The position numbers and the translations under genes were made by a program. 64,000 bases of DNA from an uncultured Candidatus Saccharibacteria bacterium (GTDB lineage: Bacteria > Patescibacteriota > Saccharimonadia > Saccharimonadales > UBA10212): the NCBI GenBank assembly GCA_964514575.1, contig CAZETJ010000002.1, forward strand, positions 1,391 through 65,390, read 5' to 3'. How positions within the stretch are numbered: position 1 is the first letter of the stretch; each line of letters opens with the position of its first letter. Shown here piece by piece: positions 109 to 63,785 of this stretch. The notes beneath the pieces are model-generated. The model ran no database searches, was not told where the DNA came from, and saw only the letters and a list, made by a program, of their open reading frames with translations.

Positions 109-130
109 AATACTTAACTAGTTAAGTATT
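109..130. repeat. Perfect 22-bp palindrome AATACTTAACTAGTTAAGTATT (motif family copy 1)
   Basis: Read directly and self-complementary. Intergenic, between the VIT gene stop and the next minus-strand start. Confidence 0.9.
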
Positions 131-140
131 TAATATGTTT

Positions 141-7622: not shown

Positions 7623-8890
7623 TCGTCGAGGGAACCAGAACCGCCGGCGGACAGGGCAATGACTAAATCGCCGGCCGCGGCGTGTTGTTTAATTTTTCGG
7701 GCAAGCGAATCGTCAAGTTCGGCAGCCTCGGCGTGCTGCTTTGACTCATTACTTAACATGTTAAGTAATTTGTCAGGGGTCAGGAGTTCCAAATCTTTAT
7801 TCTCACGCGCTAAGTAACTCGGCACTATATAAAACTGTTTTACGTTGTCAAACAATTTCTCTAACTCGTCTTTTATAAAATGCTGGCGGGTGTTATGCAG
7901 GCCTTCGTAGATTACGACGACATTATCACCAGCGACTTCATGTGCCGTGGCGAGAGCTCCGCGGATCTTAGGCGGCGTATGCGCATAATCGCTGTATATA
8001 TTGGGAGCGACTTGCTCGAAGCGGCGCGACAATCCAGGAAAATCGTTCAAAATTTCTAGATTCTTTTCCAAAGGAAAATTGGGCAATCGAGCGAAGGTTT
8101 GGGCGACTAACCAAGCATCCAGGCGGTTAACGCGCCCGACCAACCTCAACTTTTGGTCAATTGCCGGATCGCCATCGTCTAAGATCAAAAACTTGTCATC
8201 TTGCTCCAGGGCTAATGCCTCGGCGTCTGAGTGCCACAAAGTGGCTCGCTCGGATTGATCCAAAAATTCCCGGAAAGCGTCAAAGTAAGATTCGCGGGTC
8301 GGGTAAATATCGGGATGGTCCCAATCTAAACCCGAGATTAGAGCCATGTGGGGATAAAAACTTAGGAAATTGCGGTCGAACTCATCTGCCTCATAAATAA
8401 AATATTCGCTGTCTGCCTCCAGGTGGCCCATATCGCCAAAGCTGATTTTAGCCCCAACTGACCAGGCTGCCTTGACCCCAAGTTTTTGGGCTAACCAAAT
8501 GGCCATGGCAGTGGTTGTGGTCTTACCGTGAGTTCCGGATACCGCGATTAGCTTCAGACCCTTGTCGCTTATCAATTGGCTAAGAAATTCATCGCGACGG
8601 CTAGCTTTAATACCGTGTGTTTCACAAAATTTCAACTCCGGATGGTCAGGCTCAGTTTTTGGCAGGGCAGAACTGTAAACAAACCAGTCAATCGGCTTGG
8701 CGGCATATACTTTGGCGATAGCCTCGGCCGTTTGGCCGATGTGGATATCGCTAACACCCTGTTTTTTCAGGCTGTCGATATAGCTGCTGTCTTTGGCGTC
8801 CGAACCGCTGACCTCGTAGCCAGCCTGTTTAGCGATCAGCGCCAGCGGGCCGATACCAGTCCCGCCAATGCCAGAAAAGAAGATGTGCAT
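7598..8890 (-). CDS. Mur ligase family protein (MurC/Mpl-like)
   Basis: IFFSGIGGTGIGPLA Rossmann start and the VSGTHGKTTTTAM P-loop. Confidence 0.85.
   Translation of the reverse strand: MHIFFSGIGGTGIGPLALIAKQAGYEVSGSDAKDSSYIDSLKKQGVSDIHIGQTAEAIAKVYAAKPIDWFVYSSALPKTEPDHPELKFCETHGIKASRRDEFLSQLISDKGLKLIAVSGTHGKTTTTAMAIWLAQKLGVKAAWSVGAKISFGDMGHLEADSEYFIYEADEFDRNFLSFYPHMALISGLDWDHPDIYPTRESYFDAFREFLDQSERATLWHSDAEALALEQDDKFLILDDGDPAIDQKLRLVGRVNRLDAWLVAQTFARLPNFPLEKNLEILNDFPGLSRRFEQVAPNIYSDYAHTPPKIRGALATAHEVAGDNVVVIYEGLHNTRQHFIKDELEKLFDNVKQFYIVPSYLARENKDLELLTPDKLLNMLSNESKQHAEAAELDDSLARKIKQHAAAGDLVIALSAGGSGSLDEWLRGRFA
7748..7769. repeat. Perfect 22-bp palindrome ATTACTTAACATGTTAAGTAAT (motif family copy 2, inside the Mur ligase gene)
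   Basis: Read directly. Encodes LLNMLSN on the minus strand. Confidence 0.9.
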
Positions 8891-12799: not shown

Positions 12800-12935
12800 T
12801 GGTCGTTCGGTCTTCAGACAAAAGTGAACCTGCGGGACTTCTCGCTGACGCTCGTCGGAGAACACAAAAACCAATACTTAACTAGTCAAGTAATTTATAA
12901 GAGTATGAAAAAGCGCCTAGGCGCTGCGTAGGTTA
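12800..12935 (+). repeat. Segment X: decayed sequence paralogous to 52185-52355
   Basis: Colinear blocks: caaaa..gaacc..tgcgg..tcgct.gcgctc, then act.a.tagtcaag.a.t, then tgaaaag. The conceptual C-termini are also similar (YLTSQVIYKSMKKRLGAA versus GLISQALSSIEKKPRLC). Confidence 0.35.
12873..12895. repeat. Motif family copy 3, AATACTTAACTAGTCAAGTAATT (imperfect)
   Basis: Read directly. Intergenic, next to high-GC island 2. Confidence 0.8.
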
Positions 12936-13824: not shown

Positions 13825-15411
13825 ATGGAGAAGTGGTTAAGCAGGGCGAACCGGCGCATTTCACTGCCTAGCGCGGCGGCGCTCTTGATTGCCGCTTCGC
13901 TGATCGGTCTAATCCTTGGTTTTGTGCGGACCCAAATCATCAACGGTAGTTTTAATTACGGTACAAATGTCGCTACCGACCCGTATTTTGCCGCTTTTAA
14001 AATTCCGGATTTCTTCTTCTACACCATAGCTGCCGGTGCGCTTGGCGTGGCTTTCATGCCTTTTCTGATGGATCGTCTACAAAAAGGCGATCGTAAAACC
14101 GTCTGGCACCTAACATCCAGCCTGCTCAACCTGCTCAGCGCCCTAATGGTCATCGTTGGGTTCGCACTATTGTTATTTCCCGGCTTCTTTATCCGTATCG
14201 TAATTGGCCACAACCTAGGCCCGCACGAGACGCACCAAGCCATCGTGATTATGCGTTTGATCGCTTTTAACCCGCTGTTATTTACCATCTCCGGTATTTT
14301 AAGCGCGCTTCAGCAAACTTTCGGCCGATTCTTTTTCTATGCTCTGGCGCCAATCCTTTATAACGGCTCGATTATTGCCAGCGCCTATATATTTAGGGGA
14401 CACATAGGTCTGATTGGTTTGGGCATTGGTGCTCTTTGCGGCGCCATCTTGCAGCTACTATTCGTACTACTTGGCCTCGTGGGCATGGGCTATCGCTGGA
14501 CGCCGGTTATCGCGTGGCGTAGCACCGAATTCAAACAAATCCTACGCAACCTGCCGCCGCGATCAATCGACCAAGGCATTGACTCCATCAACTCGATTGT
14601 CGAGACTAATCGTGCTAGTACGCTGCCCAGCGGCTCGATTACCTTCTATGAGAACGCCTATACGTTGCACTTAGCGCCGATATTGCTGATCGGTACGACG
14701 ATTGCCACAGCGGCTTTTCCACGCCTTAACGAGCGGCTCAGCCAAGGCCGGCCGGATCTATTCCGGCGCGACTTTTTGAGGGTTTTTAGAGCAATTTTCT
14801 GGATTATCTTGCCGATGGCGGTCATTACATTCTTTGCCCGAGCGTATTTAGCACGTTTGATTTATAAATCGCCAGAACCAACAATTGCCTTAGTTTTGGG
14901 CTTCTTGGTCGGGGCGGTCATTTTCCGAACGCTCTATGCTATCATTAGCCGATATTTTTATGCCCAAAAAGATACCCGGACACCGCTTTACGTCTCGCTG
15001 TTCACAATCGCCCTAAACATTTATCTAGCGTTTACTTTGTCGCACATTTACGGAATTGTCGGCCTGGCGGTGGCTCAATCGATTGTAGCCACGGTCGAGG
15101 TATTTATACTGTTAGGCATCATGGTTTGGCGTGATCATAATCTATTTACTCCAGAATTCTGGAGTGACGTTACTCGCAGTATGTCTGTTACTGGCTTTAC
15201 GGTCGTAACCTGCTATACCATGGTCAAGCTAGTGCCGCTTTATGCCGCTGACAAAGGTTTTATAACCCTAGGCAGCAAACTGGTGTTTATCGTAATTCCA
15301 ACGCTGGCGGTGCATGTCGCGATATCATGGTTGTTCGCCCTGGAAGAAGTCCAGCCGGTAATAGAGAAACTTCGTAAATTGATCTTTCGCCCCGTCCGCG
15401 CTATAGAATAA
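13825..15411 (+). CDS. murJ: Lipid II flippase MurJ/MviN
   Basis: 528 aa, about 14 TM segments. N-terminal LILGFVRTQIINGSF..FKIPDFFF pattern of MviN. Confidence 0.8.
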   Translation: MEKWLSRANRRISLPSAAALLIAASLIGLILGFVRTQIINGSFNYGTNVATDPYFAAFKIPDFFFYTIAAGALGVAFMPFLMDRLQKGDRKTVWHLTSSLLNLLSALMVIVGFALLLFPGFFIRIVIGHNLGPHETHQAIVIMRLIAFNPLLFTISGILSALQQTFGRFFFYALAPILYNGSIIASAYIFRGHIGLIGLGIGALCGAILQLLFVLLGLVGMGYRWTPVIAWRSTEFKQILRNLPPRSIDQGIDSINSIVETNRASTLPSGSITFYENAYTLHLAPILLIGTTIATAAFPRLNERLSQGRPDLFRRDFLRVFRAIFWIILPMAVITFFARAYLARLIYKSPEPTIALVLGFLVGAVIFRTLYAIISRYFYAQKDTRTPLYVSLFTIALNIYLAFTLSHIYGIVGLAVAQSIVATVEVFILLGIMVWRDHNLFTPEFWSDVTRSMSVTGFTVVTCYTMVKLVPLYAADKGFITLGSKLVFIVIPTLAVHVAISWLFALEEVQPVIEKLRKLIFRPVRAIE

Positions 15412-31044: not shown

Positions 31045-31163
31045 AACCCAATTTTGCAAATCGGGGGTCTAGTAACCGTTTACAAAATTGAGAGGAGCGA
31101 CATAGCGCTAAGCCGAAGCTTTTACGAAACAGTAAAACGAGGAAAGCGCGTAAGTCGCGACGA
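31045..31163 (+). ncRNA. Structured tRNA 5' leader, copy A
   Basis: P0 31052-60/31079-87; box GAGAGGAG 31090-97; P1 GCGAC 31097-101 / GTCGC 31154-58; TAAGCCGAAGC; P2 31120-25/31132-37; GACGA 31159-63. Confidence 0.6.
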
Positions 31164-31241
31164 GGGCCCATAGCTCAGCCTGGTTAGAGCAGCGGCCTTT
31201 TAAGCCGCGTGTCGTGGGTTCAAATCCCACTGGGCCCTCCA
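31164..31241 (+). tRNA. tRNA-Lys (UUU)
   Basis: Cloverleaf folded by hand. Anticodon loop CUUUUAA. CCA encoded. Confidence 0.9.
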
Positions 31242-34165: not shown

Positions 34166-34804
34166 ATGAGATTATTTTTATCAAGCGAGAACCTGGGCGA
34201 ATACCCAGAAGCATTTATTGAGCTGGTCGGCGACAACAACAAGCTGGCCTTTATCGAAAATGCTAAAGACGACTGGACGCTTGATGATCGTACCGCTAAA
34301 CTCCAAGAGCACAAGCATCAGTTCAGACAGCTTGGCTTTGACGTTCATGAGCTAGACCTTAGAGATTTCTTTGGTAAAGCCGATAAGCTAGACAATTGGC
34401 TAAAAGATTTTGGTGGCGTGTTCGCTGCCGGTGGAAATTCATTTATACTACGTCGCGCCATGGCCCAAAGCGGTCTAGACAAGATCCTGATAAAACGGAC
34501 GAAAGATGACTCCGTAGCTTACGGCGGTTCAAGCGCTGGGAGCATAGTCGTTACGCCAAGCTTAAGGGGTAGCGAACATGGTGATTATCCTGATGTTGTG
34601 CCCAAAGGCTACGATAAAAAAATAATTTGGAAAGGGCTAAGCCTGGTCCCGTTTTATGTCGTGCCGCACTACAAGTCGAGTTGGTGGGGCGAGGAGGCTG
34701 ACATTATGGTCCGGAAACTCAAGGCCAAGGACTCACGCCATTACAAATTGCGAGACGGACAAGTCATAGTCGTTGAGGCTGGTAAAATCGAGTATCTAAA
34801 ATGA
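34166..34804 (+). CDS. Peptidase S51 (dipeptidase E-like)
   Basis: GGNSFILRRAM and GGSSAGSIV (Ser nucleophile context). Confidence 0.7.
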   Translation: MRLFLSSENLGEYPEAFIELVGDNNKLAFIENAKDDWTLDDRTAKLQEHKHQFRQLGFDVHELDLRDFFGKADKLDNWLKDFGGVFAAGGNSFILRRAMAQSGLDKILIKRTKDDSVAYGGSSAGSIVVTPSLRGSEHGDYPDVVPKGYDKKIIWKGLSLVPFYVVPHYKSSWWGEEADIMVRKLKAKDSRHYKLRDGQVIVVEAGKIEYLK

Positions 34805-34805
34805 G

Positions 34806-34874
34806 TCCCGTTAAAGCTAAGTATTTTTATAAAATCTGCCGGTTCGCTTGGCAGCGAGCCGGAGCTCTAACGGG
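34806..34874. mobile_element. MITE-like element, copy 1 (13-bp terminal inverted repeats, flanked by ATGAG/ATGAG)
   Basis: TCCCGTTAAAGCT ... AGCTCTAACGGG(A). Inner hairpin CTGCC/GGCAG. About 80% identical to 50887-50964. Confidence 0.6.
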
Positions 34875-35351
34875 ATGAGAATTATCGGCATCGATCCAGG
34901 CACGGGTATTCTGGGGTTTGGGATTATCGAGGCCGAAGGCGACAAATTCCACTTGGTGGATGGTGGAGTTATCCGAACGCCGGTTAAAGAAGACGATGCT
35001 GTGCGTCTGCAGACTATCTTCGAAGAACTGACCGATATCATTGCCGAGACTAAGCCCGAAGAAATGGCCGTCGAGAAATTGTTTTTTGCCCAAAATGTTA
35101 CTACCGCCATGACGGTCGCCCAGGCCCGCGGCGTAGTTTTGCTAGCAGCCAAGCAAGCCGGCCTAAAAATTTCGGAGTACACACCTCTCCAAATTAAGCA
35201 GGCGCTGACCGGCTACGGCCGGGCCGAAAAAAAGCAGGTCCAGGAGATGGTGCGGGTGATGTTGGGACTAAAAGAGATTCCAAAGCCAGACGATTGCGCC
35301 GATGCTCTGGCCGCTGCCATCTGTCATTCGCAGTCGGTTAAGGTAAAATAA
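34875..35351 (+). CDS. ruvC: Holliday junction resolvase RuvC
   Basis: MRIIGIDPGTGILGFGIIE ... EKLFFAQN ... DCADALAAAICH. Confidence 0.93.
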   Translation: MRIIGIDPGTGILGFGIIEAEGDKFHLVDGGVIRTPVKEDDAVRLQTIFEELTDIIAETKPEEMAVEKLFFAQNVTTAMTVAQARGVVLLAAKQAGLKISEYTPLQIKQALTGYGRAEKKQVQEMVRVMLGLKEIPKPDDCADALAAAICHSQSVKVK

Positions 35352-38411: not shown

Positions 38412-38459
38412 CCAACACCTTAAAACGGGTTAGAATACGAAGCTAGTGCCCTTTGGGGC

Positions 38460-38571
38460 CCCCGCAAAATTTATTTTGTGGGGAGAGGAGAAGCAGCGAT
38501 AAGCTGAAGGAGCGAACAACTGAGACAAGGGTTGGTCGCCTCCGCAAGCTGACAGCTTGCTTCGACGACGA
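38460..38571 (+). ncRNA. Structured tRNA 5' leader, copy E
   Basis: P0 CCCCGCAAAA 38460-69 / TTTTGTGGGG 38474-83; GAGAGGAG 38483-90; P1 GAAGCA 38490-95 / TGCTTC 38558-63; GACGA 38567-71. A TAGAAT -10 lies at 38431-36. Confidence 0.6.
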
Positions 38572-38646
38572 CGCGGGGTGGAGCAGTAGTAGCTCGCATG
38601 GCTCATAACCATGAGGTCGCAGGTGCAAATCCTGCCCCCGCTACCA
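38572..38646 (+). tRNA. Initiator tRNA-fMet (CAU)
   Basis: CGCGGGGTGGAGCAG start with an unpaired 1:72 position (C:U). CCA encoded. Confidence 0.88.
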
Positions 38647-38797: not shown

Positions 38798-38822
38798 GGT
38801 GCAAATCCTGCCCCCGCTACCA
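38798..38822 (+). repeat. 25-nt exact direct repeat of the tRNA-fMet 3' end (GGTGCAAATCCTGCCCCCGCTACCA)
   Basis: Identical to 38622-38646. Confidence 0.9.
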
Positions 38823-50429: not shown

Positions 50430-50885
50430 GTGACCGCAACAAACCATGCCATAACCGGCGCAGTGATCGCTGTTACTTTTAGTTCGCCGTGGTTGGCGCT
50501 GCCGGCGGCTTTGCTGTCACATTTTGTACTAGACGCTGTTCCGCATTGGGACTATCAACTGAAGCTTGCCGCGAAGCGAGCCGTAATGGCGGGTGATCTT
50601 TTACTAGCGGCCATAATTATTTTGGCGGTCGCTTTCTTTGCCGGTACGTTCAACGCGCCGGTTTGGGTGATTGTAGCCTGCGGCGCGCTGGCTGTGGTGC
50701 CCGATGCTATGTGGCTGCCGCATATCTTACGCGGCCGGCCAATTCCCATGGGTGACGACAGGCCGCTTTACTACGCTAGGCGATTTCACCGCTGGATTCA
50801 GTGGAGCGAGACAAAGCGATTGGGTATTTTAACTGAGTCTGTTTGGCTGGCGGCCATGGTTATAATTCTGTTTCAGTCGAAATGA
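50430..50885 (+). CDS. Membrane protein resembling YdjM/DUF457 metal-dependent hydrolases
   Basis: MTATNHAITGAVIA...LSHFVLDAVPHWDY and four TM segments. Confidence 0.5.
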   Translation: MTATNHAITGAVIAVTFSSPWLALPAALLSHFVLDAVPHWDYQLKLAAKRAVMAGDLLLAAIIILAVAFFAGTFNAPVWVIVACGALAVVPDAMWLPHILRGRPIPMGDDRPLYYARRFHRWIQWSETKRLGILTESVWLAAMVIILFQSK

Positions 50886-50886
50886 A

Positions 50887-50964
50887 TCCCGTTAGAGCTA
50901 AGTATTTTATCAAAGATAAAATCTGCCGCATATCTAGCCGGCAGTTATGCGGAGCTCTAACGGG
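50887..50964. mobile_element. MITE-like element, copy 2 (perfect 13-bp terminal inverted repeats, flanked by ATGAA/ATGAA)
   Basis: TCCCGTTAGAGCT ... AGCTCTAACGGG(A). Inner hairpin CTGCCG/CGGCAG. Confidence 0.6.
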
Positions 50965-51561
50965 ATGAAAATTACGGCCCTCAAGCAGCAGGTTAAAAAT
51001 CCGGGACGGGTTAGTATTTTTGTCAATGAGAAATACAGTTTTTCACTGACCATTAACCAGGTGGCTGACTACGGGGTCAAAAAAGATCTAGAAATATCCG
51101 AGGCCGAGCTTAAGAACTTCAAAAAAATGTCCGAAGACGGCAAGCTGGCAGCGCGGGCTCTCGAGTGGGTGCTCAACCGGCCGCATTCAGTCCGTGAGTT
51201 CAAGGATTACATGTACCGCAAAAAGGCCGAGCCGGAACTGGCCGGAAAGTTGATCGAGGAGTTCGGGGCAAAGGGTTACCTAAACGACGAAGCCTACGGC
51301 CGATGGTTGATCGAGCTAAGGGCTAGGACCGGCAAAAGTAACCGGGCGATGAGCGCCGAGCTTTTTGCCAAAGGATTGGATAGGGAAGTCATTGGTCAGA
51401 TTCTAGAAGAGCAGGAGGCCAGCGAGGCGGAACGACTACGGGTACTAGTAGCCAAGAAACGACCACTCTCCCGATATAAAAATGATGACCCAAAGCTTAT
51501 AAAATACTTAACTAGTCAAGGATTCTCTTACGACCTAGTTAAGCAAGAGTTAAATACTTAA
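50965..51561 (+). CDS. recX: RecA regulator RecX
   Basis: Three-repeat helical protein following recA. Start trimmed to MKITALKQQ. Confidence 0.8.
   Translation: MKITALKQQVKNPGRVSIFVNEKYSFSLTINQVADYGVKKDLEISEAELKNFKKMSEDGKLAARALEWVLNRPHSVREFKDYMYRKKAEPELAGKLIEEFGAKGYLNDEAYGRWLIELRARTGKSNRAMSAELFAKGLDREVIGQILEEQEASEAERLRVLVAKKRPLSRYKNDDPKLIKYLTSQGFSYDLVKQELNT
51502..51524. repeat. Motif family copy 5, AAATACTTAACTAGTCAAGGATT (inside recX)
   Basis: Read directly. Confidence 0.8.
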
Positions 51562-51576
51562 CTAGTTAAGTATTTA
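51551..51576. repeat. Perfect 26-bp palindrome TAAATACTTAACTAGTTAAGTATTTA (motif family copy 6)
   Basis: Read directly. Contains the recX stop codon. Lies between convergent genes. Confidence 0.9.
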
Positions 51577-51601
51577 CTAAAGGGAAAAGAGCAGCGATTT
51601 T

Positions 51602-54829: not shown

Positions 54830-55215
54830 AAATACTAACGATCAGAACAGACAAACCAAAGGCAGAGCTAGGGGTATATGACGGCCAAAAGAAATTAGCT
54901 TATATAAAGTGGCTGGCCGACCGGCAGCTGGCCGAAACCATTCATACTAAAATCTCAGAAATACTTAACAAGTCAAGTATTTTGCAAGATGACCTGCGGG
55001 GAATAGCTGTATTCAAAGGTCCGGGCAGTTTTACGGGTTTGCGGATCGGTTTATCCGTCGCCAATGCCCTGGCCTACTCGCTGAGCATCCCTATCGTTGC
55101 CGCTGACGGCAAGAATTGGGCTTCCCAGGCCATAAAAAAATTAGAAACAGGTAAGAACGATAAAATTGCTTTGCCTGAGTACGGCGCGCCGGCCAGAACC
55201 ACGCTCCAACGCTAA
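54826..55215 (+). CDS. tsaB: tRNA t6A biosynthesis protein TsaB (short form)
   Basis: ATGA overlap with tsaE. GPGSFTGLRIGLSVANALAYSL. Confidence 0.85.
   Translation: MKILTIRTDKPKAELGVYDGQKKLAYIKWLADRQLAETIHTKISEILNKSSILQDDLRGIAVFKGPGSFTGLRIGLSVANALAYSLSIPIVAADGKNWASQAIKKLETGKNDKIALPEYGAPARTTLQR
54959..54982. repeat. Motif family copy 7, AAATACTTAACAAGTCAAGTATTT (inside tsaB)
   Basis: Read directly. Encodes ILNKSSI. Confidence 0.8.
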
Positions 55216-56881: not shown

Positions 56882-57298
56882 ATGATCAAGGTTGTCCTAT
56901 TTGATTATGGTGGAGTGTTGTCGCGGCTGTTGGTGCCGCAATACAAAGTCCGGCGGCTGGCCAAAGCCCTGCACAACCAGGGCATCAGCGTGGCGGTTCT
57001 GTCCAACATGAACTCACTTGGCGGCTGGGGTATCCGAATGCTGGGTCTGTACCACGGATTCGCGCCAGTGATTCTGTCCTATCAGGAGGGCGTCCGCAAG
57101 CCCGACCCGCGCATCTACCAAATAGCGATTAAAAAACTTGGGGTTAAGCCCAACGAAATTCTGTTCGTAGATAATTTGGTCGAAAATGTAAGGGCGGCGC
57201 GGGCAGGAGGGATACAAACGCTGCACGCTGATGGCACCAAAAGACTAATCTCTCGGCTCAAGACAATCTTAGCTAAAGAAAACAACCTAGTGCTATAA
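56882..57298 (+). CDS. HAD-superfamily hydrolase (short)
   Basis: VVLFDYGGVL ... KPDPRIYQ ... LFVDN. Confidence 0.7.
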   Translation: MIKVVLFDYGGVLSRLLVPQYKVRRLAKALHNQGISVAVLSNMNSLGGWGIRMLGLYHGFAPVILSYQEGVRKPDPRIYQIAIKKLGVKPNEILFVDNLVENVRAARAGGIQTLHADGTKRLISRLKTILAKENNLVL

Positions 57299-57316
57299 TT
57301 ACCCCTGTTCTGGCAA

Positions 57317-57392
57317 CGGGGTGTGGCGCAGTTGGTAGCGCGCAGCGTTCGGGACGCTGAGGCCGCCGGTTCAAGTCCGGCCACCCCGACCA
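57317..57392 (+). tRNA. tRNA-Pro (CGG)
   Basis: CGGGGTG acceptor stem, loop UUCGGGA, CCA encoded. No structured leader; a TATAAT box lies at 57293-98. Confidence 0.9.
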
Positions 57393-58189
57393 CTTTTGGC
57401 TTGGTGATAGAGCACAGTCGTGAAGATGCTATTTATAAGTTTGAAGATTACCAAGCCCGAGGTGGCTAACTCTAAGCTGACTAACCAGCCGACGTTTTCG
57501 GCAGTACGTCCATGAAAAATACCGTGCTGAATTAGTTTCGGCAAAGCGACTACCAAAAAGACCGCCACGTACATCCAGATTTTCAAAACTAAGCCCTCGC
57601 GCCAGGTCTTGCTGAATGTATTAATCGTGCCGCGAATTGTTGCGCCGACGCCTTTATGCTCGGTTAAAACTTCTGGAGCCACTTGGGCCATGTGCAAGGT
57701 TAGCGAATTTCCCATAACGCCAACGAAACCTTTTGGCAGTTTACGGCGTTGGGCGTAAACTGCCATCGGAAAAAAGAAGACTGCCGCCACTGCGAATTTG
57801 GTAATTCTAAAAAAATGACTCAAGACTTGGCGTAGAGCGTAGAACGGCGGGACTGGCTGTCTCTCTAGCCTGGCTAGAACTCCGGCAGAAATCGCGCAAC
57901 TGAAATAGGCGGTGACTAAAGCGGCATAAAAAAATGAAAATCCGACCAGCCCTAGGATTATCCGGGTGTGGTGTGGTGCTAGATCACCAGCCCCTGTGAA
58001 AATGCGATTATACCAATGAGCGAAGATCGAAGCGCCGACTATCGGGTAGGTTAACGATATAAAAAGACCGGCACTGTAAATATAGGCAATGATCTGTGGG
58101 TAGCGGGCAGTGACTTTAAGACCATCTTTGACGACGGCTGCCGCACCGCGAGTAGCGGTCTTGGTACCATGAAAGAATTCTGCCGGCAT
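57371..58189 (-). CDS. Hypothetical polytopic membrane protein, 272 aa
   Basis: Six or more TM segments. The last 22 nt overlap tRNA-Pro on the opposite strand. Confidence 0.6.
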   Translation of the reverse strand: MPAEFFHGTKTATRGAAAVVKDGLKVTARYPQIIAYIYSAGLFISLTYPIVGASIFAHWYNRIFTGAGDLAPHHTRIILGLVGFSFFYAALVTAYFSCAISAGVLARLERQPVPPFYALRQVLSHFFRITKFAVAAVFFFPMAVYAQRRKLPKGFVGVMGNSLTLHMAQVAPEVLTEHKGVGATIRGTINTFSKTWREGLVLKIWMYVAVFLVVALPKLIQHGIFHGRTAENVGWLVSLELATSGLVIFKLINSIFTTVLYHQAKSGRGGRT

Positions 58190-58340: not shown

Positions 58341-58456
58341 AAACCAATTTTGCAAGCTAGGCACCGATGCTTGTAAAATTGAGAGGAGTAACTTAGCACT
58401 AAGCCGAAGCTTTTGATTCACTAACCAAAACGAGGCAAATGCGCAAGTTATGACGA
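58341..58456 (+). ncRNA. Structured tRNA 5' leader, copy B
   Basis: P0 58348-57/58369-78; GAGAGGAG 58381-88; P1 TAACTT 58389-94 / AAGTTA 58445-50; TAAGCCGAAGC 58400-10; P2 58411-30; GACGA 58452-56. Confidence 0.65.
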
Positions 58457-58533
58457 CGGGGTGTGGCGCAGTTGGCTAGCGCGCCGCGTTTGGGACGCGG
58501 AGGCCGGAGGTTCGAGTCCTCTCACCCCGACCA
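58457..58533 (+). tRNA. tRNA-Pro (UGG)
   Basis: Cloverleaf folded by hand. Loop UUUGGGA. CCA encoded. Confidence 0.9.
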
Positions 58534-58546
58534 GAACTAAGCTACA

Positions 58547-59194
58547 ATGTTTATAATGCTTGCGTTATTTGCTTGTTTGGTGGGGGTGCTGTCAATCCTA
58601 TTGGTGGCCGAAGCGCTCTGGCGCGGCGGCCACTTGAGGTATGAAGACCATCGAAAATTTGTGCACATTGGTGTCGGCATTTTTGTAGCATTTTGGCCAT
58701 GGATCATCGGCTGGCATTGGATTGAGCTGCTAGGCCTGGCGATGGCCTTTGTAGTTTTGGTCGATCGACAGATTCGAGTTTTTCACTTTTCAGTCAGACT
58801 CAATCGCCAGACATATGGTGATATTTTGTTCGCACTAGCTATTACAGCTTGCGCCCTGCTAGCTAACAACAAGATAATTTTCGCGCTCGCTATATTAAAT
58901 CTATCCGTAGCCGACGGTGTGGCCGCCATTATTGGCAATCATTTTGGCCGGCACTTTCGGTACAAAGTTTTTGGCCAAACCAAATCGGTGATCGGCAGTA
59001 TGGCTTTTTGGCTTGGCTCTATGTTGATACTGGGCATCGGACTACTTTTCTTCCAAGTTAATCCGCACCACTACCTGTGGATGCTGTTATTCTTACCGCC
59101 AACTCTAACCTGGCTAGAGAACTTCGCGGTTTACGGAACGGACAACCTGGCTGTCTCGCTGGCTGTAGTTGCCACCCTCCGACTCATAAATTAG
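58547..59194 (+). CDS. Polyprenol/dolichol/phytol kinase-like membrane protein (CTP-transferase 1 superfamily)
   Basis: SVADGVAAIIGNHFGRH...GQTKSVIGSMAFW. The ATG lies 13 nt after the tRNA CCA. Confidence 0.55.
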   Translation: MFIMLALFACLVGVLSILLVAEALWRGGHLRYEDHRKFVHIGVGIFVAFWPWIIGWHWIELLGLAMAFVVLVDRQIRVFHFSVRLNRQTYGDILFALAITACALLANNKIIFALAILNLSVADGVAAIIGNHFGRHFRYKVFGQTKSVIGSMAFWLGSMLILGIGLLFFQVNPHHYLWMLLFLPPTLTWLENFAVYGTDNLAVSLAVVATLRLIN

Positions 59195-59723
59195 ATGAAC
59201 CAATAAGGACGCCGGCGAGAAAAACTAGCCCTCCGCCGACAATGACCTGCAACGCGGAGATCCAGGCTTTCATTTCAAAGAAGCGGTAGCGAATGTAGGC
59301 AATGACTAGGAGTTCTATGCCCACGACCAAGTAGGCTAGGGTTAGGGCGGTGTGAATGTTGCCGCTCAAGAAGGGCAGGGTATGAAATATGCCACCCAGA
59401 AAAGTCATGGCGCCGATTATCATGCCGCGGCGTACAGGCCGTCCGCGACCGGTAAGTTCGCCAGTGTCGCTTAAGCCTTCGGCAAAAGCCATTGAGATTC
59501 CAGCACCGACGGCAGCCGACAGGCCGATGACAAAAGCAAAGTGCGGTTTATGGGATGCGAAAGCAGCGGCAAAGATTGGCGCCAAAGTTGAGATCGAGCC
59601 GTCAATCAAACCAGCCAGACCCGGTTGAACAGTTTGCAGAACGAAGCGATTGTATTCTGCTTCAGTCCGCGGTGTTTTACCGCCAAGCTTAATCGGCCAA
59701 GAAAATGGGTTAATATCTGTCAT
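59184..59723 (-). CDS. VIT-family membrane protein (no N-terminal cytosolic domain)
   Basis: GLIDGSISTLAPIF ... GISMAFAEGLSD ... Start trimmed to MTDINPF, 9 nt after the tRNA-His CCA. Confidence 0.7.
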   Translation of the reverse strand: MTDINPFSWPIKLGGKTPRTEAEYNRFVLQTVQPGLAGLIDGSISTLAPIFAAAFASHKPHFAFVIGLSAAVGAGISMAFAEGLSDTGELTGRGRPVRRGMIIGAMTFLGGIFHTLPFLSGNIHTALTLAYLVVGIELLVIAYIRYRFFEMKAWISALQVIVGGGLVFLAGVLIGSSNL

Positions 59724-59732
59724 AAAAATTGC

Positions 59733-59810
59733 TGGGGCGAACGATGGGTCTTGAACCCACGACCTCCGGGACCACAACCCGGCGCTCTAACCAACTGAGC
59801 TACGTTCGCC
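59733..59810 (-). tRNA. tRNA-His (GUG) with an encoded G-1
   Basis: Cloverleaf folded by hand. Loop UUGUGGU. An extra 5' G opposite C73. CCA encoded. Confidence 0.9.
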
Positions 59811-59925
59811 TCGTCGGAACTTGCGGTTTTGTCTCGTTTTGCCAAATTGGCAAAAGCTTCGACCTGAACCTATGTTCCTCCTCTCAATTTTACAAGCAGC
59901 AATGCTTGGCTTGCAAAATTGGTTT
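59811..59925 (-). ncRNA. Structured tRNA 5' leader, copy C
   Basis: GAGAGGAG within 59878-88; P1 GGAAC (59878-74) / GTTCC (59820-16); P2 palindrome 59837-55; GACGA 59815-11. Confidence 0.65.
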
Positions 59926-59964
59926 AGACCAAAGACGCCGTAATTGTATCACCAACAGAGGTGA

Positions 59965-60207
59965 TTACCTAGCTATTCTTAATTTCTTTATTACTCTAGC
60001 GAGACCCGAGAGCCCAATCTCAGGCGGTACGTCGGTTTCCTCAACACGTTCACCAAATCTGTCATATCTTTTTATAGCCGGAACAACTTCTTCAGCAACT
60101 CGGCCATTACTGTAAACTAGCATCCCATCGATGTGGGCGGGCGCAAAACTCTCGGCACGCGGTAGAAGTGTGCCCTCGAGTCTAAGTTGTTCTCCAACTC
60201 CAGCCAT
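59965..60207 (-). CDS. Hypothetical protein, 80 aa
   Basis: ORF only, no SD. Lies 52 nt downstream of tRNA-Arg. Confidence 0.35.
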   Translation of the reverse strand: MAGVGEQLRLEGTLLPRAESFAPAHIDGMLVYSNGRVAEEVVPAIKRYDRFGERVEETDVPPEIGLSGLARVIKKLRIAR

Positions 60208-60412: not shown

Positions 60413-60460
60413 TCGTCAAAGCACGGCTTAAGCCTATACCGCTCCTCTTAATTCTACAAG
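60413..60460 (-). ncRNA. Minimal tRNA 5' leader, copy D
   Basis: TTGTAGAATTAAGAGGAGCGGTATAGGCTTAAGCCGTGCTTTGACGA followed directly by the tRNA. Confidence 0.5.
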
Positions 60461-60495
60461 GTAGAGAGTACACTGAGAATAGAAAGGGGAGAATT

Positions 60496-60834
60496 ATGGA
60501 TAAAGATTTTTTGGTGGTTACAACCACCACAAACGACATACCAGGCTACAAAATAACCAAAGTCTACGGCGAGGTTTTTGGCCTGATAGTCAGGAGCCGC
60601 AACCTATTTAGTAATATCGGAGCGGGCTTCCGCACGGTTTTTGGAGGAGAAGTTCGTGGCTACACCAAGCTTTTGAGTGACAGCCGCGAGCAGGCCATTG
60701 AGCGAATGTGCGAAGAGGCTAAGTCGAGAGGCGCCAACGCTGTTGTCGCTATGAACTTCGATTCTGGCGGCATGGGCAATATCATGAACGAGGTCGCCGC
60801 TTACGGCACGGCCGTCAAAGTCGAAAAAATCTAA
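60496..60834 (+). CDS. YbjQ/UPF0145 family protein
   Basis: GGGGAG SD. GYKITKVYGEVFG...GGEVRGYTKLL...ANAVVAM. Confidence 0.88.
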   Translation: MDKDFLVVTTTTNDIPGYKITKVYGEVFGLIVRSRNLFSNIGAGFRTVFGGEVRGYTKLLSDSREQAIERMCEEAKSRGANAVVAMNFDSGGMGNIMNEVAAYGTAVKVEKI

Positions 60835-62507: not shown

Positions 62508-63785
62508 ATGGACGATAAACAAGTAGCGGCGCTAATCGCCGGCGAGGAAAAAAGGCAACGTGAGGGCTTAGAGCTAATCCCCTCTGAGAACTATGTCAGC
62601 CGGGACGTGCTCAATGCTTTGGGCAGTGTTTTTACTAATAAATACTCCGAGGGTTATCCAGGCAGGCGTTATTACGGCGGCCAAGACTTTACGGATAAGG
62701 TCGAGACGCTGGCTATCGAGCGGGCAAAAAAACTGTTCGGTGCCGACCACGCCAATGTCCAGCCACATTCCGGGGCGCCAGCTAACATCGCGGTGTATTT
62801 TGCTTGGCTGGAGCCAGGCGACACAGTTTTAGGGATGAGGCTCGACCATGGCGGACACCTGACCCATGGGCATCCGGTTACTACTATGGCCAAACTTTAC
62901 AACTTCGTACGCTACGGTATCAAGGACGTAGAAACTGGCGAGATTGATTACGACGAGATGCGTCGCGTTGCCCTCAAAGAAAAACCTAAAATAATCCTGG
63001 CCGGCTTCTCTGGCTATCCACGCAACTTGGACTACGCTAAGTTCGCTGAAATCGGCAACGAGGTTGGTGCTCTGCTGATGGCTGACATGGCTCACATAGC
63101 TGGCTTGATTGCCGGCAAAGCCCTGCCGAACCCGTTCGATTTTGGGTTCCAAGTGATCACGACTACTACGCACAAAACTCTGCGCGGTCCGCGCGGGGGT
63201 ATGATCTTGACGAAGGGCACGGTTGGCAACCCGCTTAAACCGGTCGAGAAAACGCTAGAAAATCTGCCCACGTTGATTGACCGTGAAGTTTTCCCAGGCT
63301 TCCAGGGCGGCCCGCACATGAACAACACAGCTGCCAAAGCCATAACTTTTGGAGAAGCTCTTAAGCCAGAGTTCAAAACTTACGCTAAGCAAATACTCGT
63401 TAACGCTAAAACACTTGCCGACGAAATGATGAGCCGCGGCTTTAAACTGGTGACTAACGGTACCGACAATCACTTGATCATGGCCGATGTCCACACTAGC
63501 TTTGGGGTAGATGGCAGGGAAGTGCAGGATATTCTTGATAAGATCGGCTTATCCGCAAACTGCAACTCTATACCCAACGATGTTCTGCCGCCGTTTCGAC
63601 CTAGCGGACTGAGGCTCGGCACTCCAGCCATGACTACTCGTGGTTTAAAAGAAAAAGACATGGCCCAAATTGCGCAGTGGATGGCCCAAGCTATCAAGAA
63701 TCGTAAAGACGATAAAATACTTAACAAGTTAAGTAATGAAGTCCGGGAGTTCAGCCTAAAATTCCCATTACCCAGCGACCAGTAA
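62508..63785 (+). CDS. glyA: Serine hydroxymethyltransferase
   Basis: AGAGGAG SD. LIPSENYVS ... TTTTHKTLRGPRGG (PLP lysine). Confidence 0.97.
   Translation: MDDKQVAALIAGEEKRQREGLELIPSENYVSRDVLNALGSVFTNKYSEGYPGRRYYGGQDFTDKVETLAIERAKKLFGADHANVQPHSGAPANIAVYFAWLEPGDTVLGMRLDHGGHLTHGHPVTTMAKLYNFVRYGIKDVETGEIDYDEMRRVALKEKPKIILAGFSGYPRNLDYAKFAEIGNEVGALLMADMAHIAGLIAGKALPNPFDFGFQVITTTTHKTLRGPRGGMILTKGTVGNPLKPVEKTLENLPTLIDREVFPGFQGGPHMNNTAAKAITFGEALKPEFKTYAKQILVNAKTLADEMMSRGFKLVTNGTDNHLIMADVHTSFGVDGREVQDILDKIGLSANCNSIPNDVLPPFRPSGLRLGTPAMTTRGLKEKDMAQIAQWMAQAIKNRKDDKILNKLSNEVREFSLKFPLPSDQ
63715..63737. repeat. Motif family copy 8, AAATACTTAACAAGTTAAGTAAT (inside glyA)
   Basis: Read directly. Encodes ILNKLSN. 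Confidence 0.8.

What the first reader, a model, noticed from the sequence alone, without database searches (positions are those of the whole stretch)
59723..59925. Leader copy C plus tRNA-His (G-1 encoded), followed after 9 nt by a VIT-family ORF
On the minus strand the order is:
- an extended -10 TGATACAAT (about 59950-59942);
- the full leader;
- GACGA;
- G-1 and tRNA-His, with its CCA ending at 59733;
- the ATG of the VIT-like gene at 59723.

The spacer between the tRNA and the ATG is gcaattttt. It contains no SD and no terminator. The leader and tRNA therefore appear to form the 5' part of an mRNA.

P2 in this copy is a 19-nt perfect palindrome (59837-59855).
Basis: seen in the sequence. 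Interest (0 to 1): 0.65.

Follow-up and report, generated by a model that had tools for sequence, protein, structure and literature searches.

The report
Structured pre-tRNA leader, tRNA-His–VIT operon
A tRNA-His gene in a Saccharibacteria genome is preceded by one copy of a previously uncatalogued, strongly conserved ~115-nt folded RNA leader found in front of many tRNAs and tmRNA across this bacterial lineage, and is followed 9 nt later by an iron-transporter-family gene that appears to ride on the same transcript.

Summary
On the minus strand the order is: extended -10, leader, GACGA, G-1, tRNA-His(GUG) with its CCA ending at 59733, a 9-nt spacer, then the ATG of a VIT-family ORF at 59723.

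The leader is not specific to this gene. It belongs to a family of structured RNAs, not matched in Rfam 15, that sits flush against the 5' end of tRNAs of at least 32 anticodons and of tmRNA. It occurs in at least 65 Saccharibacteria species genomes. Across 112 sequences, 33 of 37 base pairs show compensatory changes.

It is tied to the tRNA 5' end rather than to the transcription start, since it also occurs between tRNAs and in the 16S-23S spacer. It carries no codon-like specifier. It does not correlate with read-through into downstream genes.

The tRNA-His to VIT junction is conserved in 15 contigs, with a 5-16 nt AU-rich spacer and no SD, promoter or terminator, whatever the type of leader. 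So co-transcription is well supported by comparison, but it does not depend on the leader.

I read the unit as promoter, leader, tRNA-His, VIT. RNase P and 3' tRNA processing would release a nearly leaderless VIT mRNA. The leader's own role is still inferred.

The parts
59943..59951 (-). Extended -10 promoter-like box TGATACAAT. Just upstream, at 59953-59968, lies GGTAAT-CACCTCTGTT, the -10 plus C-rich discriminator signature seen at most tRNA promoters in relatives.
   Evidence: Sequence. The TAnAAT-cACCTCTGTT signature recurs upstream of leaders and of tRNAs without leaders in many loci. Its use as a promoter is inferred.
59811..59924 (-). Leader copy C, a structured 5' leader of pre-tRNA-His.
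   Evidence: CM scores 135.7 and 121.7 bits. Fold -41.2 kcal/mol, z = -4.0. Family covariation is shown.
59885..59921 (-). P1 hairpin (CAAUUUUGCAAGC...GCUUGUAAAAUUG).
   Evidence: 12 of 13 P1 pairs show compensatory changes across 112 sequences.
59878..59885 (-). GAGAGGAG linker. It is SD-like, and it is also the 5' strand of the proposed basal G.A helix.
   Evidence: Nearly invariant. Complementary to the 16S tail, mean -13.7 kcal/mol. The pairing with CGACGA is inferred.
59813..59881 (-). P2, a long interrupted stem (four helical segments with conserved internal loops UAG/CGYAAG and CGAAG/CGAG).
   Evidence: helices 3-7 are 86-98% paired, and most pairs show compensatory changes.
59837..59855 (-).
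   Evidence: Sequence. The helix CUUUUG/CAAAAC is nearly invariant in the family.
59811..59816 (-). CGACGA junction, the 3' strand of the basal helix, ending at position -1 of the tRNA.
   Evidence: G-5 A-4 C-3 G-2 A-1 are 80-90% conserved in leader-bearing tRNAs. tRNAs without the leader have a U-biased -1 instead.
59733..59810 (-). tRNA-His(GUG) with encoded G-1 (59810) and encoded CCA (59735-59733).
   Evidence: ARAGORN, Rfam, sequence.
59724..59732 (-). 9-nt spacer GCAAUUUUU with no SD, no -10 box and no hairpin.
   Evidence: Equivalent 5-16 nt AU-rich spacers occur in 15 related contigs.
59184..59723 (-). VIT-family (PF01988) membrane protein ORF, 179 aa, starting at the first ATG after the tRNA.
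   Evidence: Pfam. The N-terminus aligns from M1 with L056 and other homologues.
31046..31163 (+). Leader copy A, before tRNA-Lys(UUU) at 31164-31241.
   Evidence: 108.9-121.4 bits.
58342..58456 (+). Leader copy B, before tRNA-Pro(UGG) at 58457-58533.
   Evidence: 107.6-131.6 bits.
38457..38571 (+). Divergent leader copy before tRNA-Met at 38572-38646.
   Evidence: CM 26.4 bits, E = 1.7e-4. It keeps P1, GAGAGGAG and CGACGA.
60413..60499 (-). Truncated leader copy before the tRNA-Gly/tRNA-Arg pair (60412-60260).
   Evidence: CM 19.0 bits, E about 0.01. It keeps P1, AAGAGGAG, the UAUAG loop and GACGA but lacks the distal part of P2.

Best explanation
Leader copy C is one member of a clade-wide family of structured RNA domains, about 115 nt long, that form the 5' leader of tRNA and tmRNA precursors in Saccharibacteria.

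It is transcribed either from an upstream sigma-70-type stable-RNA promoter or as the spacer after an upstream tRNA or 16S rRNA. It folds into a P1 hairpin plus a long P2 rod. The base of P2 (GAGGAG opposite CGACGA, modelled as G-C pairs alternating with tandem G.A pairs) ends flush against tRNA position +1, or G-1 for tRNA-His. RNase P cuts the leader off; a class-A RNase P RNA is encoded in a leader-bearing Saccharibacteria contig (L083).

I take its most likely role to be a cis-acting module for pre-tRNA maturation or stability, recognised by a conserved trans factor. It is not a sensor of tRNA identity and not an mRNA regulator.

At this locus the primary transcript runs promoter, leader, tRNA-His, VIT. 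RNase P cleavage at A(59811)|G-1(59810), together with endonucleolytic 3' processing just after the encoded CCA, releases the tRNA. That leaves a VIT mRNA with a 5' UTR of at most 9 nt, AU-rich and without an SD. It would be translated in the leaderless-like mode that many genes of this genome appear to use.

**Shown:** the sequence anatomy; the RNA structure, by covariation; the association with tRNA and tmRNA 5' ends; the independence from tRNA identity and from the transcription start; the conservation of the tRNA-His-VIT junction; the presence of RNase P RNA in a leader-bearing Saccharibacteria contig.

**Inferred:** promoter use, co-transcription, RNase P cleavage at the junction, the G.A geometry, the mode of translation, and the leader's actual function.
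For: **Structure.**
- The three window copies share one fold with 9 compensatory pairs.
- Across 112 homologues, 92.9% of cells are paired against 27-47% when the partner is slid, and 33 of 37 pairs show double changes. Many G-U pairs show the structure is strand-specific, so it is RNA.

**Distribution.**
- No Rfam match at gathering threshold or at E <= 10.

**Coupling to RNase P substrates.**
- 92 of 118 pattern hits have a tRNA within 27 nt (69 at exactly 23 nt), covering at least 32 anticodons.
- tmRNA follows at the same spacing in L073, L084 and L108.
- There are almost no orphan copies.
- The junction GACGA is 80-90% conserved only in leader-bearing tRNAs.
- RNase P RNA class A scores 215 bits in L083.

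**Not promoter-bound.** The leader also follows other tRNAs and lies in the 16S-23S spacer.

**tRNA-His-VIT unit.**
- No terminator or promoter between them.
- The 5-16 nt junction is conserved in 15 contigs.
- Leaderless-type starts are common in the window.
- CCA-encoded tRNAs are cut a few nt downstream in another bacterium (PMC3848588).
Against: - There is no transcript, cleavage or binding data for any step.
- A stable helix reaching position -1 should hinder RNase P rather than help it, because the RNase P protein binds a single-stranded leader (established knowledge). So 'helps processing' is not self-evident.
- Many tRNAs in the same genomes do without the leader (3 of 8 units in the window; 75 tRNAs without it in the sampled loci).
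- Several loci show the leader-linked tRNA copy decayed and replaced by a downstream copy with a short leader. The leader is therefore dispensable for any individual tRNA.
- The conserved internal loops and the invariant CUUUUG/CAAAAC helix are unexplained by a purely passive leader.
- In L119, the closest VIT relative, the gene has its own promoter.
- No complementarity to RNase P RNA beyond shuffled controls.
Confidence: 0.6

Rival explanations
1. The leader is itself the functional product. It would be a multi-copy small RNA whose exact 3' end is made by RNase P cleavage of the adjoining tRNA. It then acts in trans, for example by titrating a protein, or by titrating the anti-SD of 30S subunits through its exposed strong SD-like GAGAGGAG. 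The tRNA would serve as promoter-sharing partner and processing signal.
For: - Conserved loops and some invariant helices point to recognition by a trans factor.
- The linker pairs with the 16S tail at -12 to -16 kcal/mol, as strongly as the best real SD in the window. Divergent subfamilies keep AAGGAGG.
- Both ends lie in helices, which should favour stability.
- The leader stays intact next to decayed tRNA fragments in at least 9 loci.
- There is precedent for functional tRNA spacer RNAs: the 3'ETS-leuZ sponge in E. coli (my own knowledge).
Against: - The CGACGA partner strand is conserved just as strongly, which the G.A helix explains better than an SD function.
- In the folded state GGAG is not free.
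- There are almost no stand-alone copies with their own terminator.
- There are no expression data.
Confidence: 0.2
2. The leader is a ligand- or protein-responsive gate on RNase P cleavage, a natural counterpart of synthetic riboswitch-controlled pre-tRNA processing. It would tune the maturation of many tRNAs and tmRNA together.
For: - The rod-like fold has three conserved internal loops.
- The basal helix covers positions -1 to -6, which RNase P needs single-stranded.
- The element is generic across tRNA identities.
- Engineered leaders can control RNase P in this way (PMC8925977).
Against: - There is no alternative-pairing expression platform, no candidate ligand, and no multi-helix junction or pseudoknot.
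- Only a subset of tRNAs carry the element.
- In divergent subfamilies the distal loops are replaced by unrelated hairpins, which argues against a conserved aptamer.
Confidence: 0.08
3. VIT is transcribed from its own start, from a weak promoter that overlaps the 3' part of tRNA-His. TTCAAG in the T-arm would be the -35 box and AGCAAT or CAATTT in the spacer the -10 box. This would give a truly leaderless mRNA, so the leader and tRNA would not be part of the VIT mRNA.
For: - This genome uses many -10-only leaderless promoters.
- L119 has an unambiguous TATAAT 6 nt before the VIT ATG.
- In L056 a 23-nt tRNA-His 3' remnant is retained before VIT, with CATTAT 4 nt upstream of the ATG.
- The neighbouring 215-aa gene probably has its own TACAAT 7 nt before its second ATG.
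Against: - In the window, no hexamer with A at position 2 and T at position 6 sits 6-8 nt before 59723, and the promoter scan finds nothing there.
- Across relatives, the -10-like strings lie at inconsistent distances from the ATG (1-4 nt), and most spacers have none.
Confidence: 0.2
4. The 'leader' is a DNA-level repeat with no RNA function of its own: a MITE- or REP-like element, or a promoter cassette whose P1 arms happen to resemble -35 and -10 boxes (TTGCAA-18-TAAAAT).
For: - The promoter scan flags TTGCAA-18-TAAAAT inside P1 of copies B and C.
- The element is dispersed in many copies.
Against: - Copies within one genome are only about 76-81% identical, with compensatory and G-U changes.
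- The orientation and distance to tRNA +1 are fixed.
- Canonical promoters lie upstream of the element.
- In most family members the P1 sequence is not promoter-like.
Confidence: 0.03

Closest known systems
Ordinary bacterial pre-tRNA 5' leaders removed by RNase P
   Same: Located directly 5' of tRNA +1 (or G-1 for tRNA-His). RNase P RNA is present in a leader-bearing Saccharibacteria contig. tmRNA, another RNase P substrate, carries the same element.
   Different: Ordinary leaders are short, unstructured, unconserved and U-biased at -1, as the tRNAs without this leader show here. This one is about 115 nt, folded, conserved across a whole class-level lineage, and has A at -1 inside a conserved CGACGA.
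tRNA-mRNA co-transcription units (E. coli thrU-tyrU-glyT-thrT-tufB operon) and mitochondrial tRNA punctuation
   Same: A tRNA immediately upstream of an ORF with no terminator between them. Excising the tRNA would create the mRNA 5' end close to the start codon, as in mitochondria (my own knowledge).
   Different: Here the spacer is only 5-16 nt with no SD, in a free-living-type bacterial genome rich in leaderless genes. The pairing tRNA-His/VIT is lineage-specific. No transcript evidence is available.
T-box leader RNAs
   Same: A long structured leader RNA with G.A-rich motifs that is functionally connected with tRNA.
   Different: T-boxes precede aminoacyl-tRNA-synthetase and amino-acid genes, bind tRNA in trans through a specifier codon, and end in a terminator/antiterminator. 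Here there is no Rfam T-box hit, no specifier signal and no terminator, and the element precedes the tRNA gene itself.
STAB-SD and 5'-hairpin stabilisers of Gram-positive mRNAs (PMC4113751, PMC3997798, PMC5737220)
   Same: A 5'-proximal hairpin followed by a strong SD-like sequence (GAAAGGAGG-type) that is not followed by a start codon. RNase Y is encoded in the window.
   Different: Those elements stabilise mRNAs against RNase J1. Here the element precedes a tRNA, is cut away from anything downstream by RNase P, and its SD-like strand appears to be paired with CGACGA.
Functional tRNA spacer RNAs (3'ETS-leuZ sponge of E. coli)
   Same: A by-product of tRNA precursor processing that could have its own function.
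   Different: 3'ETS-leuZ acts by base-pairing with sRNAs and is a single locus. This is a 5' element, multi-copy, with conserved structure rather than a conserved pairing sequence.

Membership tests
Bacterial tRNA-His | Cloverleaf scoring above the tRNA model threshold, with a GUG anticodon | tested here: met
   ARAGORN tRNA-His(gtg) at 59733-59809. Rfam RF00005 scores 67.5 bits against a gathering score of 29.
Bacterial tRNA-His | Genome-encoded G-1 opposite C73, and an encoded CCA | tested here: met
   G at 59810 precedes GCGAACG. The 3' end reads CGTTCGC-C-CCA and ends at 59733.
VIT family (Pfam PF01988) | Whole-protein score above the Pfam gathering cutoff | tested here: met
   47.1 bits against 28.1, E = 3.4e-12.
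Any Rfam 15 family (for the leader) | Covariance-model match to the leader region | tested here: not met
   Only tRNA hits at gathering threshold over the whole window. Nothing relevant at E <= 10 over 59650-60050.
T-box leader | Specifier triplet complementary to the anticodon of the cognate tRNA | tested here: not met
   Best column matches the codon in 6 of 86 sequences, against a shuffle maximum averaging 6.05. Mutual information with anticodon bases is at null level for two of the three; the first base just reaches the null 95th percentile (0.217 vs 0.210).
T-box leader | Terminator/antiterminator with the T-box sequence, upstream of an aaRS or amino-acid gene | tested here: not met
   No terminator in the leader. 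It precedes tRNA and tmRNA genes.
tRNA-mRNA co-transcription unit | No terminator and no separate promoter between the tRNA and the ORF | tested here: met
   One search finds none, and the 9-nt spacer leaves no room. By eye there is no -10 box with A2/T6 at 6-8 nt from the ATG.
tRNA-mRNA co-transcription unit | Evolutionary conservation of the junction | tested here: met
   15 contigs have gaps of 5-16 nt. The one exception is L119.
tRNA-mRNA co-transcription unit | A single primary transcript spanning both | not testable with these tools
   Needs RNA-seq, a Northern blot or RT-PCR.
STAB-SD-type 5' stabiliser | SD-like sequence strongly complementary to the 16S 3' end, not followed by a start codon | tested here: met
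   Mean -13.7 kcal/mol against GGAUUACCUCCUUUCU. The conserved sequence downstream is NUAG, not a start codon.
STAB-SD-type 5' stabiliser | 30S binding that protects the downstream RNA from 5' exonuclease | not testable with these tools
   Needs toeprinting and half-life measurements. The SD-like strand is also predicted to be paired.
Kink-turn | Canonical stem, 3-nt bulge, then tandem sheared G.A pairs | tested here: not met
   Tandem GA/GA juxtapositions are present (GGAG/CGAC and CGAAG/CGAG), but they are flanked by Watson-Crick pairs with no bulge or a 1-nt bulge (inspection).
MITE/REP-type dispersed repeat | Near-identical copies, variable orientation and context, no compensatory substitutions | tested here: not met
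   76-81% identity between the window copies, with compensatory changes. Orientation and distance to tRNA +1 are fixed.
Riboswitch | Conserved aptamer plus an expression platform (terminator or SD sequestration) | tested here: inconclusive
   Conserved internal loops exist, but there is no platform. Divergent subfamilies replace the distal P2 with unrelated hairpins.

The most novel reading that the evidence does not exclude
The leader would be a new class of functional RNA specific to Saccharibacteria. It would be a G.A-rich rod stacked directly on the acceptor stem of tRNA and tmRNA precursors. Either it gates RNase P processing of a large subset of tRNAs in response to a cellular factor, or, once released in amounts matching tRNA synthesis, it acts in trans. 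In the trans case it could sequester the anti-SD of ribosomes and shift translation between SD-led and leaderless mRNAs. Either way it would link stable-RNA synthesis to global gene expression in an ultra-small episymbiont.
Probability: 0.25. Interest if true: 0.9.

Novelty: new variant of a known kind. Interest (0 to 1): 0.7.

Why it matters
Pre-tRNA 5' leaders are normally treated as disposable, unconserved sequence. Here a large part of the tRNA set, plus tmRNA, of a major Candidate Phyla Radiation lineage carries a leader with one of the clearest covariation signals obtainable from so few steps. It is absent from Rfam, and four full-text literature searches on it found nothing.

That implies an unrecognised step or factor in stable-RNA biogenesis, or a new abundant small RNA, in organisms with about 1-Mb genomes where every conserved 115 nt repeated many times must pay its way.

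It also gives a practical tool: a covariance model that marks tRNA and tmRNA 5' ends in Saccharibacteria MAGs.

Separately, the conserved tRNA-His-VIT junction is a clean bacterial candidate for a tRNA-punctuated, nearly leaderless mRNA. This makes directly testable the question of how mRNAs without an SD are generated and translated in these bacteria.

Tried and rejected
- **T-box-like sensing.** I tested codon complementarity and mutual information between every leader column and the anticodon or first tRNA bases. All but one were at the permutation null; the first anticodon base only just reached the null 95th percentile (0.217 vs 0.210).
- **Known RNA family.** Rfam at gathering threshold and at E <= 10 gave nothing for the leader. 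The unknown RNAs after the leaders in L039 and L051 also gave nothing.
- **Leader as marker of read-through into mRNAs.** Terminator frequency after leader-bearing tRNAs (40/83) matches that after tRNAs without it (32/74).
- **Leader as promoter-proximal element.** Rejected because it also follows other tRNAs and lies in the rRNA spacer.
- **Leader replacing RNase P, as a self-cleaving ribozyme.** A canonical RNase P RNA is present, many tRNAs lack the leader, and there is no ribozyme match in Rfam.
- **Base-pairing between the leader and RNase P RNA.** No better than shuffled controls.
- **Covariation test of the proposed G.A layers.** The positions are almost invariant in the alignment. My relaxed regex was contaminated by AAGGAG in the P1 loops, so no claim is made.
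- **Phage carriage.** No hit in viral contigs.
- **P1 as a promoter (TTGCAA-18-TAAAAT).** Rejected because of P1 covariation.
- **Literature.** Four of the six full-text searches targeted the motif itself and found no description of it; the other two looked for analogues.
Full report
**1. The observation**

- TGATACAAT lies at 59951-59943. It is preceded at 59968-59953 by GGTAAT-CACCTCTGTT.
- A leader of about 115 nt runs from 59924 to 59811 and ends in GACGA (59815-59811).
- G at 59810 is G-1.
- tRNA-His(GUG) occupies 59809-59733 (ARAGORN; Rfam 67.5 bits). Its acceptor stem is GCGAACG/CGTTCGC, its discriminator is C, and its CCA is encoded and ends at 59733.
- The spacer gcaattttt occupies 59732-59724.
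- An ATG at 59723 opens a 179-aa ORF that matches Pfam VIT1 (PF01988, 47.1 bits).
- The 19-nt palindrome TTTTGCCAATTTGGCAAAA is at 59855-59837.
- No terminator-like site lies between the tRNA and the ORF.

**2. The leader is a real, repeated, structured RNA**

The window holds three clear copies:
- A: 31046-31163, before tRNA-Lys(UUU).
- B: 58342-58456, before tRNA-Pro(UGG).
- C: 59924-59811, before tRNA-His.

A motif pattern finds only these three, against 0.00 expected by chance. They are 76-81% identical. Each folds independently into the same shape, with z-scores from -2.8 to -4.0. That shape is a P1 hairpin, a short purine linker, and a long interrupted stem P2.

With only three sequences, 9 of 37 predicted pairs already show compensatory double changes. 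A covariance model also finds two degenerate copies, before tRNA-Met (38457-38571) and before tRNA-Gly/tRNA-Arg (60499-60413). So 5 of the 8 tRNA transcription units in the window carry the element. Rfam 15 has no match for it at gathering threshold or at E <= 10.

**3. Distribution**

I built a pattern from the linker and the internal loops, leaving out P1, and scanned one genome per GTDB species.
- 117 are true hits. They come from 65 assemblies, nearly all labelled Candidatus Saccharibacteria, Saccharimonadia or Saccharimonadales, with up to 8 strict-pattern copies in one genome.
- One hit, in a deltaproteobacterial coding region, is chance.
- There was no hit in viral contigs.

Model R1 retrieved 112 copies from the window plus 98 loci (alignment A4). 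On A4:
- 92.9% of cells are canonical pairs, against 27-47% when the 3' partner is slid by 1-3 columns.
- 33 of 37 pairs carry compensatory changes.
- None of 500 column shuffles reaches any observed measure.
- G-U pairs are frequent (for example UG in 38 sequences at pair 92-207), so the structure belongs to the sense strand, meaning RNA.

The consensus is CAA..(P1)..UUG-AGA-GGAG-NNNC-NUAG-(stem)-CGAAGCUUUUG-(loop)-CAAAACGAG-(stem)-CGUAAG-(stem)-CGACGA followed by the tRNA.

**4. What it is attached to**
- Of the 118 pattern hits, 92 have a tRNA starting within 27 nt of the last motif (69 at exactly 23 nt). At least 32 different anticodons are represented.
- In L073, L084 and L108 the RNA that follows at the same spacing is tmRNA (Rfam). 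L049 and L009 look the same by eye.
- Almost no copy stands alone. The exceptions are followed by one of the following: a decayed 5' fragment of a tRNA, an extra hairpin module that again ends in CCGACG(A/U), or an unidentified RNA (L039 and L051; no Rfam match).
- The element is not bound to the transcription start.
  - Most copies lie 10-25 nt downstream of a -10 box with a conserved C-rich discriminator (cACCTCTGTT).
  - Others directly follow another tRNA (L025, L072, L012, L019).
  - Others lie in the 16S-23S spacer before tRNA-Ile/Ala (L044, L023, L020).
- It carries no identity signal. No leader column matches the codon or carries information about the anticodon or the first tRNA bases clearly beyond the permutation null; the first anticodon base only just reaches the null 95th percentile.
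- It does not correlate with what lies downstream. A terminator follows 40 of 83 leader-bearing tRNAs and 32 of 74 tRNAs without the leader.

**5. The junction**

In leader-bearing tRNAs, G(-5)A(-4)C(-3)G(-2)A(-1) is 80-90% conserved. tRNAs without the leader in the same loci show the usual U-biased -1 (U30, A21, C16, G8). So CGACGA is part of the leader and does not reflect an RNase P preference.

Placed opposite the equally invariant GAGGAG of the linker, it can form G-C, tandem G.A/A.G, G-C, tandem A.G/G.A, ending flush with tRNA +1. This would stack P2 directly on the acceptor stem. This geometry is inferred. The positions are too invariant for a covariation test, and my relaxed regex was contaminated.

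Divergent subfamilies replace the distal half of P2 with unrelated hairpins. They always keep P1, then RRAGGAG(G), then a stem, then CGACG(A/U), then the tRNA.

The linker is also a very strong SD-like sequence. Against the 16S tail of these genomes (GGAUUACCUCCUUUCU) it gives a mean of -13.7 kcal/mol. That equals the best genuine SD in the window and is beyond the first percentile of random 15-mers. Because the partner strand CGACGA is conserved just as strongly, I consider the G.A helix the primary constraint. Ribosome binding is an open secondary possibility.

**6. Removal**

A full-length class-A RNase P RNA (215 bits) is encoded in L083, a leader-bearing Saccharibacteria contig. The leader is therefore not a substitute for RNase P. 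Cleavage at GA|G is the natural inference. I found no complementarity between the leader and that RNase P RNA beyond shuffled controls.

**7. The tRNA-His-VIT unit**

In the window there is no terminator, no SD, and no -10 box at 6-8 nt from the ATG.

Comparative data are decisive for the linkage. In 80 metagenomic VIT loci and the genome loci, tRNA-His lies 5-16 nt before the first ATG of the VIT ORF in the following:

| Locus | Gap (nt) |
|---|---|
| window | 9 |
| L056 | 10, measured from a 23-nt remnant identical to the window's tRNA-His 3' end |
| L120, L121, L140 | 7 |
| L122 | 9 |
| L124 | 5 |
| L126 | 5 |
| L128 | 16 |
| L130 | 8 |
| L131 | 7 |
| L133 | 5 |
| L134 | 5 |
| L135 | 8 |
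| L149 | 10 |

All the spacers are AU-rich and lack an SD. The N-termini align from the first methionine.

The 5' flank of tRNA-His in these loci varies:
- the long leader: window, L056, and a 46.9-bit variant in L121/L140;
- a different 'type-2' hairpin: L128, L149;
- another tRNA: L124;
- only a TATAAT-CACCCCTGTT promoter with a leader of about 5 nt: L130, L135.

So the dicistron is older than any particular leader and independent of it. The exception is L119, whose VIT is 94% identical to the window's. It has a 122-nt gap with a hairpin and a TATAAT 6 nt before the ATG.

The missing SD is not unusual. About 20 ORFs in the window have a -10 box 6-8 nt before the start codon, which suggests leaderless mRNAs, and about 22 have an SD.

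Together with the documented endonucleolytic cut a few nt downstream of CCA-encoded tRNAs in another bacterium (PMC3848588), the most economical model is this: tRNA processing leaves a VIT mRNA with at most 9 nt of 5' UTR, and it is translated in leaderless-like fashion.

**8. Copy B is not the same case**

The 215-aa ORF after tRNA-Pro(UGG) probably starts at its second ATG (58556). Homologues align from residue 3-4, and a TACAAT lies at 58543-58548, exactly 7 nt upstream. Relatives keep tRNA-Pro upstream, but with longer gaps that contain an own promoter (L122) or a terminator (L131). In L056 the gene has an SD and no tRNA upstream.

**9. Mechanism and rivals**

I commit to the following, with overall confidence 0.6. 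The leader is a cis-acting, RNase-P-removed domain of tRNA and tmRNA precursors, recognised by a conserved trans factor. At this locus it heads a promoter-leader-tRNA-His-VIT transcript.
- The structural-RNA part is close to certain.
- The co-transcription part I put at about 0.7.
- The 'processing or stability module' role I put at about 0.4.

Rivals:
- a trans-acting released RNA, possibly an anti-SD or protein sponge (0.2);
- a factor-responsive gate on RNase P (0.08);
- an independent VIT promoter overlapping the tRNA 3' end (0.2, which concerns only the co-transcription claim);
- a DNA repeat or promoter cassette (0.03).

A T-box-like mechanism, a known Rfam family and a self-cleaving RNase P substitute were tested and rejected (sections 2, 4, 6).

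**10. Novelty**

The tRNA-His gene, the VIT gene and tRNA-mRNA co-transcription are ordinary kinds. The leader family is not in Rfam 15, and four full-text literature searches on the motif found nothing. Two further searches, on analogues, also turned up no description of it. Those limits apply: subscription-only papers are not covered.

A conserved, covarying 5' leader shared by tRNAs of all specificities and by tmRNA is, to my knowledge, undescribed. I rate the whole as a new variant of a known kind, with a 0.25 chance that it represents a categorically new functional RNA.

Noticed in passing
window 109-135, 7748-7774, 12873-12899, 51503-51579 (two copies), 54960-54986, 63716-63742 and weaker copies: A 27-nt AT-rich palindrome, AATACTTAACTAGTTAAGTATTT, occurs about 10 times (family D1). 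It is often at gene ends or between convergent genes. It could be a bidirectional terminator, an operator or a DNA-uptake-type sequence.
   Followed up: no
window 38622-38646 and 38798-38822: The last 25 nt of tRNA-Met (38572-38646) are repeated exactly 176 nt downstream (family D4). This looks like an att-site-type scar of integration or tRNA gene replacement.
   Followed up: no
L007, L017, L020, L038, L093, L094, L098, L106, L110 (coordinates): A recurrent arrangement appears in these loci. The leader is followed by a near-identical 20-38-nt 5' fragment of tRNA X, then 75-200 nt that sometimes holds degenerate tRNA remains, then a promoter-like TAcAAT, then an intact tRNA X. This suggests frequent tRNA gene duplication or replacement, or insertion of a small promoter cassette.
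   Followed up: partly
L056 2035-2069: A 23-nt remnant identical to the window's tRNA-His 3' end sits between a different, leader-bearing tRNA-His and the VIT ATG. This is evidence that one tRNA-His gene was replaced by another while the old junction to VIT was kept.
   Followed up: yes
L010 2410-2502, L052 5217-5310, L065: An additional conserved two-hairpin module of about 85 nt (GAUAAU..AUUAUAUGCAGA..CCAAGAAA..UUUCUUGG..GAAGCUAUACGA) is inserted between the leader and the tRNA (His, Met, Cys). In these copies the leader ends in CGAUAA instead of CGACGA.
   Followed up: no
L099, L088, L028, L030, L128, L149 (upstream of tRNAs): A second, unrelated conserved pre-tRNA leader hairpin (…GAUGAGAAAAACCGNAGGUUUGUCUCAU…) precedes some tRNAs that lack the main leader. 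Saccharibacteria seem to have several families of structured tRNA leaders.
   Followed up: no
L039 5687-5830; L051 (minus strand, after 977): Two leaders are followed by RNAs that are neither tRNA nor tmRNA and match nothing in Rfam even at E <= 1. The one in L039 ends in a strong hairpin.
   Followed up: partly
window, many genes (e.g. ATG at 13825, 15414, 33432, 35356, 35945, 36422, 37977, 44760, 47076, 53050; minus-strand gene 57371-58189, whose ATG is at 58189): About 20 ORFs have a TATAAT-like box 6-8 nt before the start codon and no SD, which suggests abundant leaderless mRNAs. About 22 have a classical SD.
   Followed up: partly
window 59953-59962, 57296-57305 and many loci: tRNA promoters share a conserved C-rich discriminator and initial transcribed sequence, TAnAAT-nAC(C/A)YCTGTT, whether or not the long leader follows. 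This may be a stringent-type stable-RNA promoter signature.
   Followed up: no
window 58543-58556: The 215-aa ORF after tRNA-Pro(UGG) probably starts at the second ATG (58556) and has its own TACAAT 7 nt upstream. The ORF list's start at 58547 is likely 3 codons too long.
   Followed up: yes
window 59184-59194: The VIT ORF (minus strand) and the 215-aa ORF (plus strand) converge and overlap by 11 nt with no terminator between them. The two tRNA-led units would therefore produce overlapping antisense 3' ends. The same convergent gene pair is conserved in L056, L120-L124, L126, L128, L131 and L133-L135.
   Followed up: partly
window 34799-34884 and 50880-50974: Two pairs of 86-93% identical segments (families D9 and D10) lie just upstream of, and into the start of, ORFs at 34848 and 50947. 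This suggests paralogous genes with a shared 5' region.
   Followed up: no
L097, L103 (DATHNF01): Two leader-bearing contigs belong to a MAG labelled Verrucomicrobiia. Given their Saccharibacteria-type leaders and tRNA promoters, they are probably mis-binned or mislabelled.
   Followed up: no
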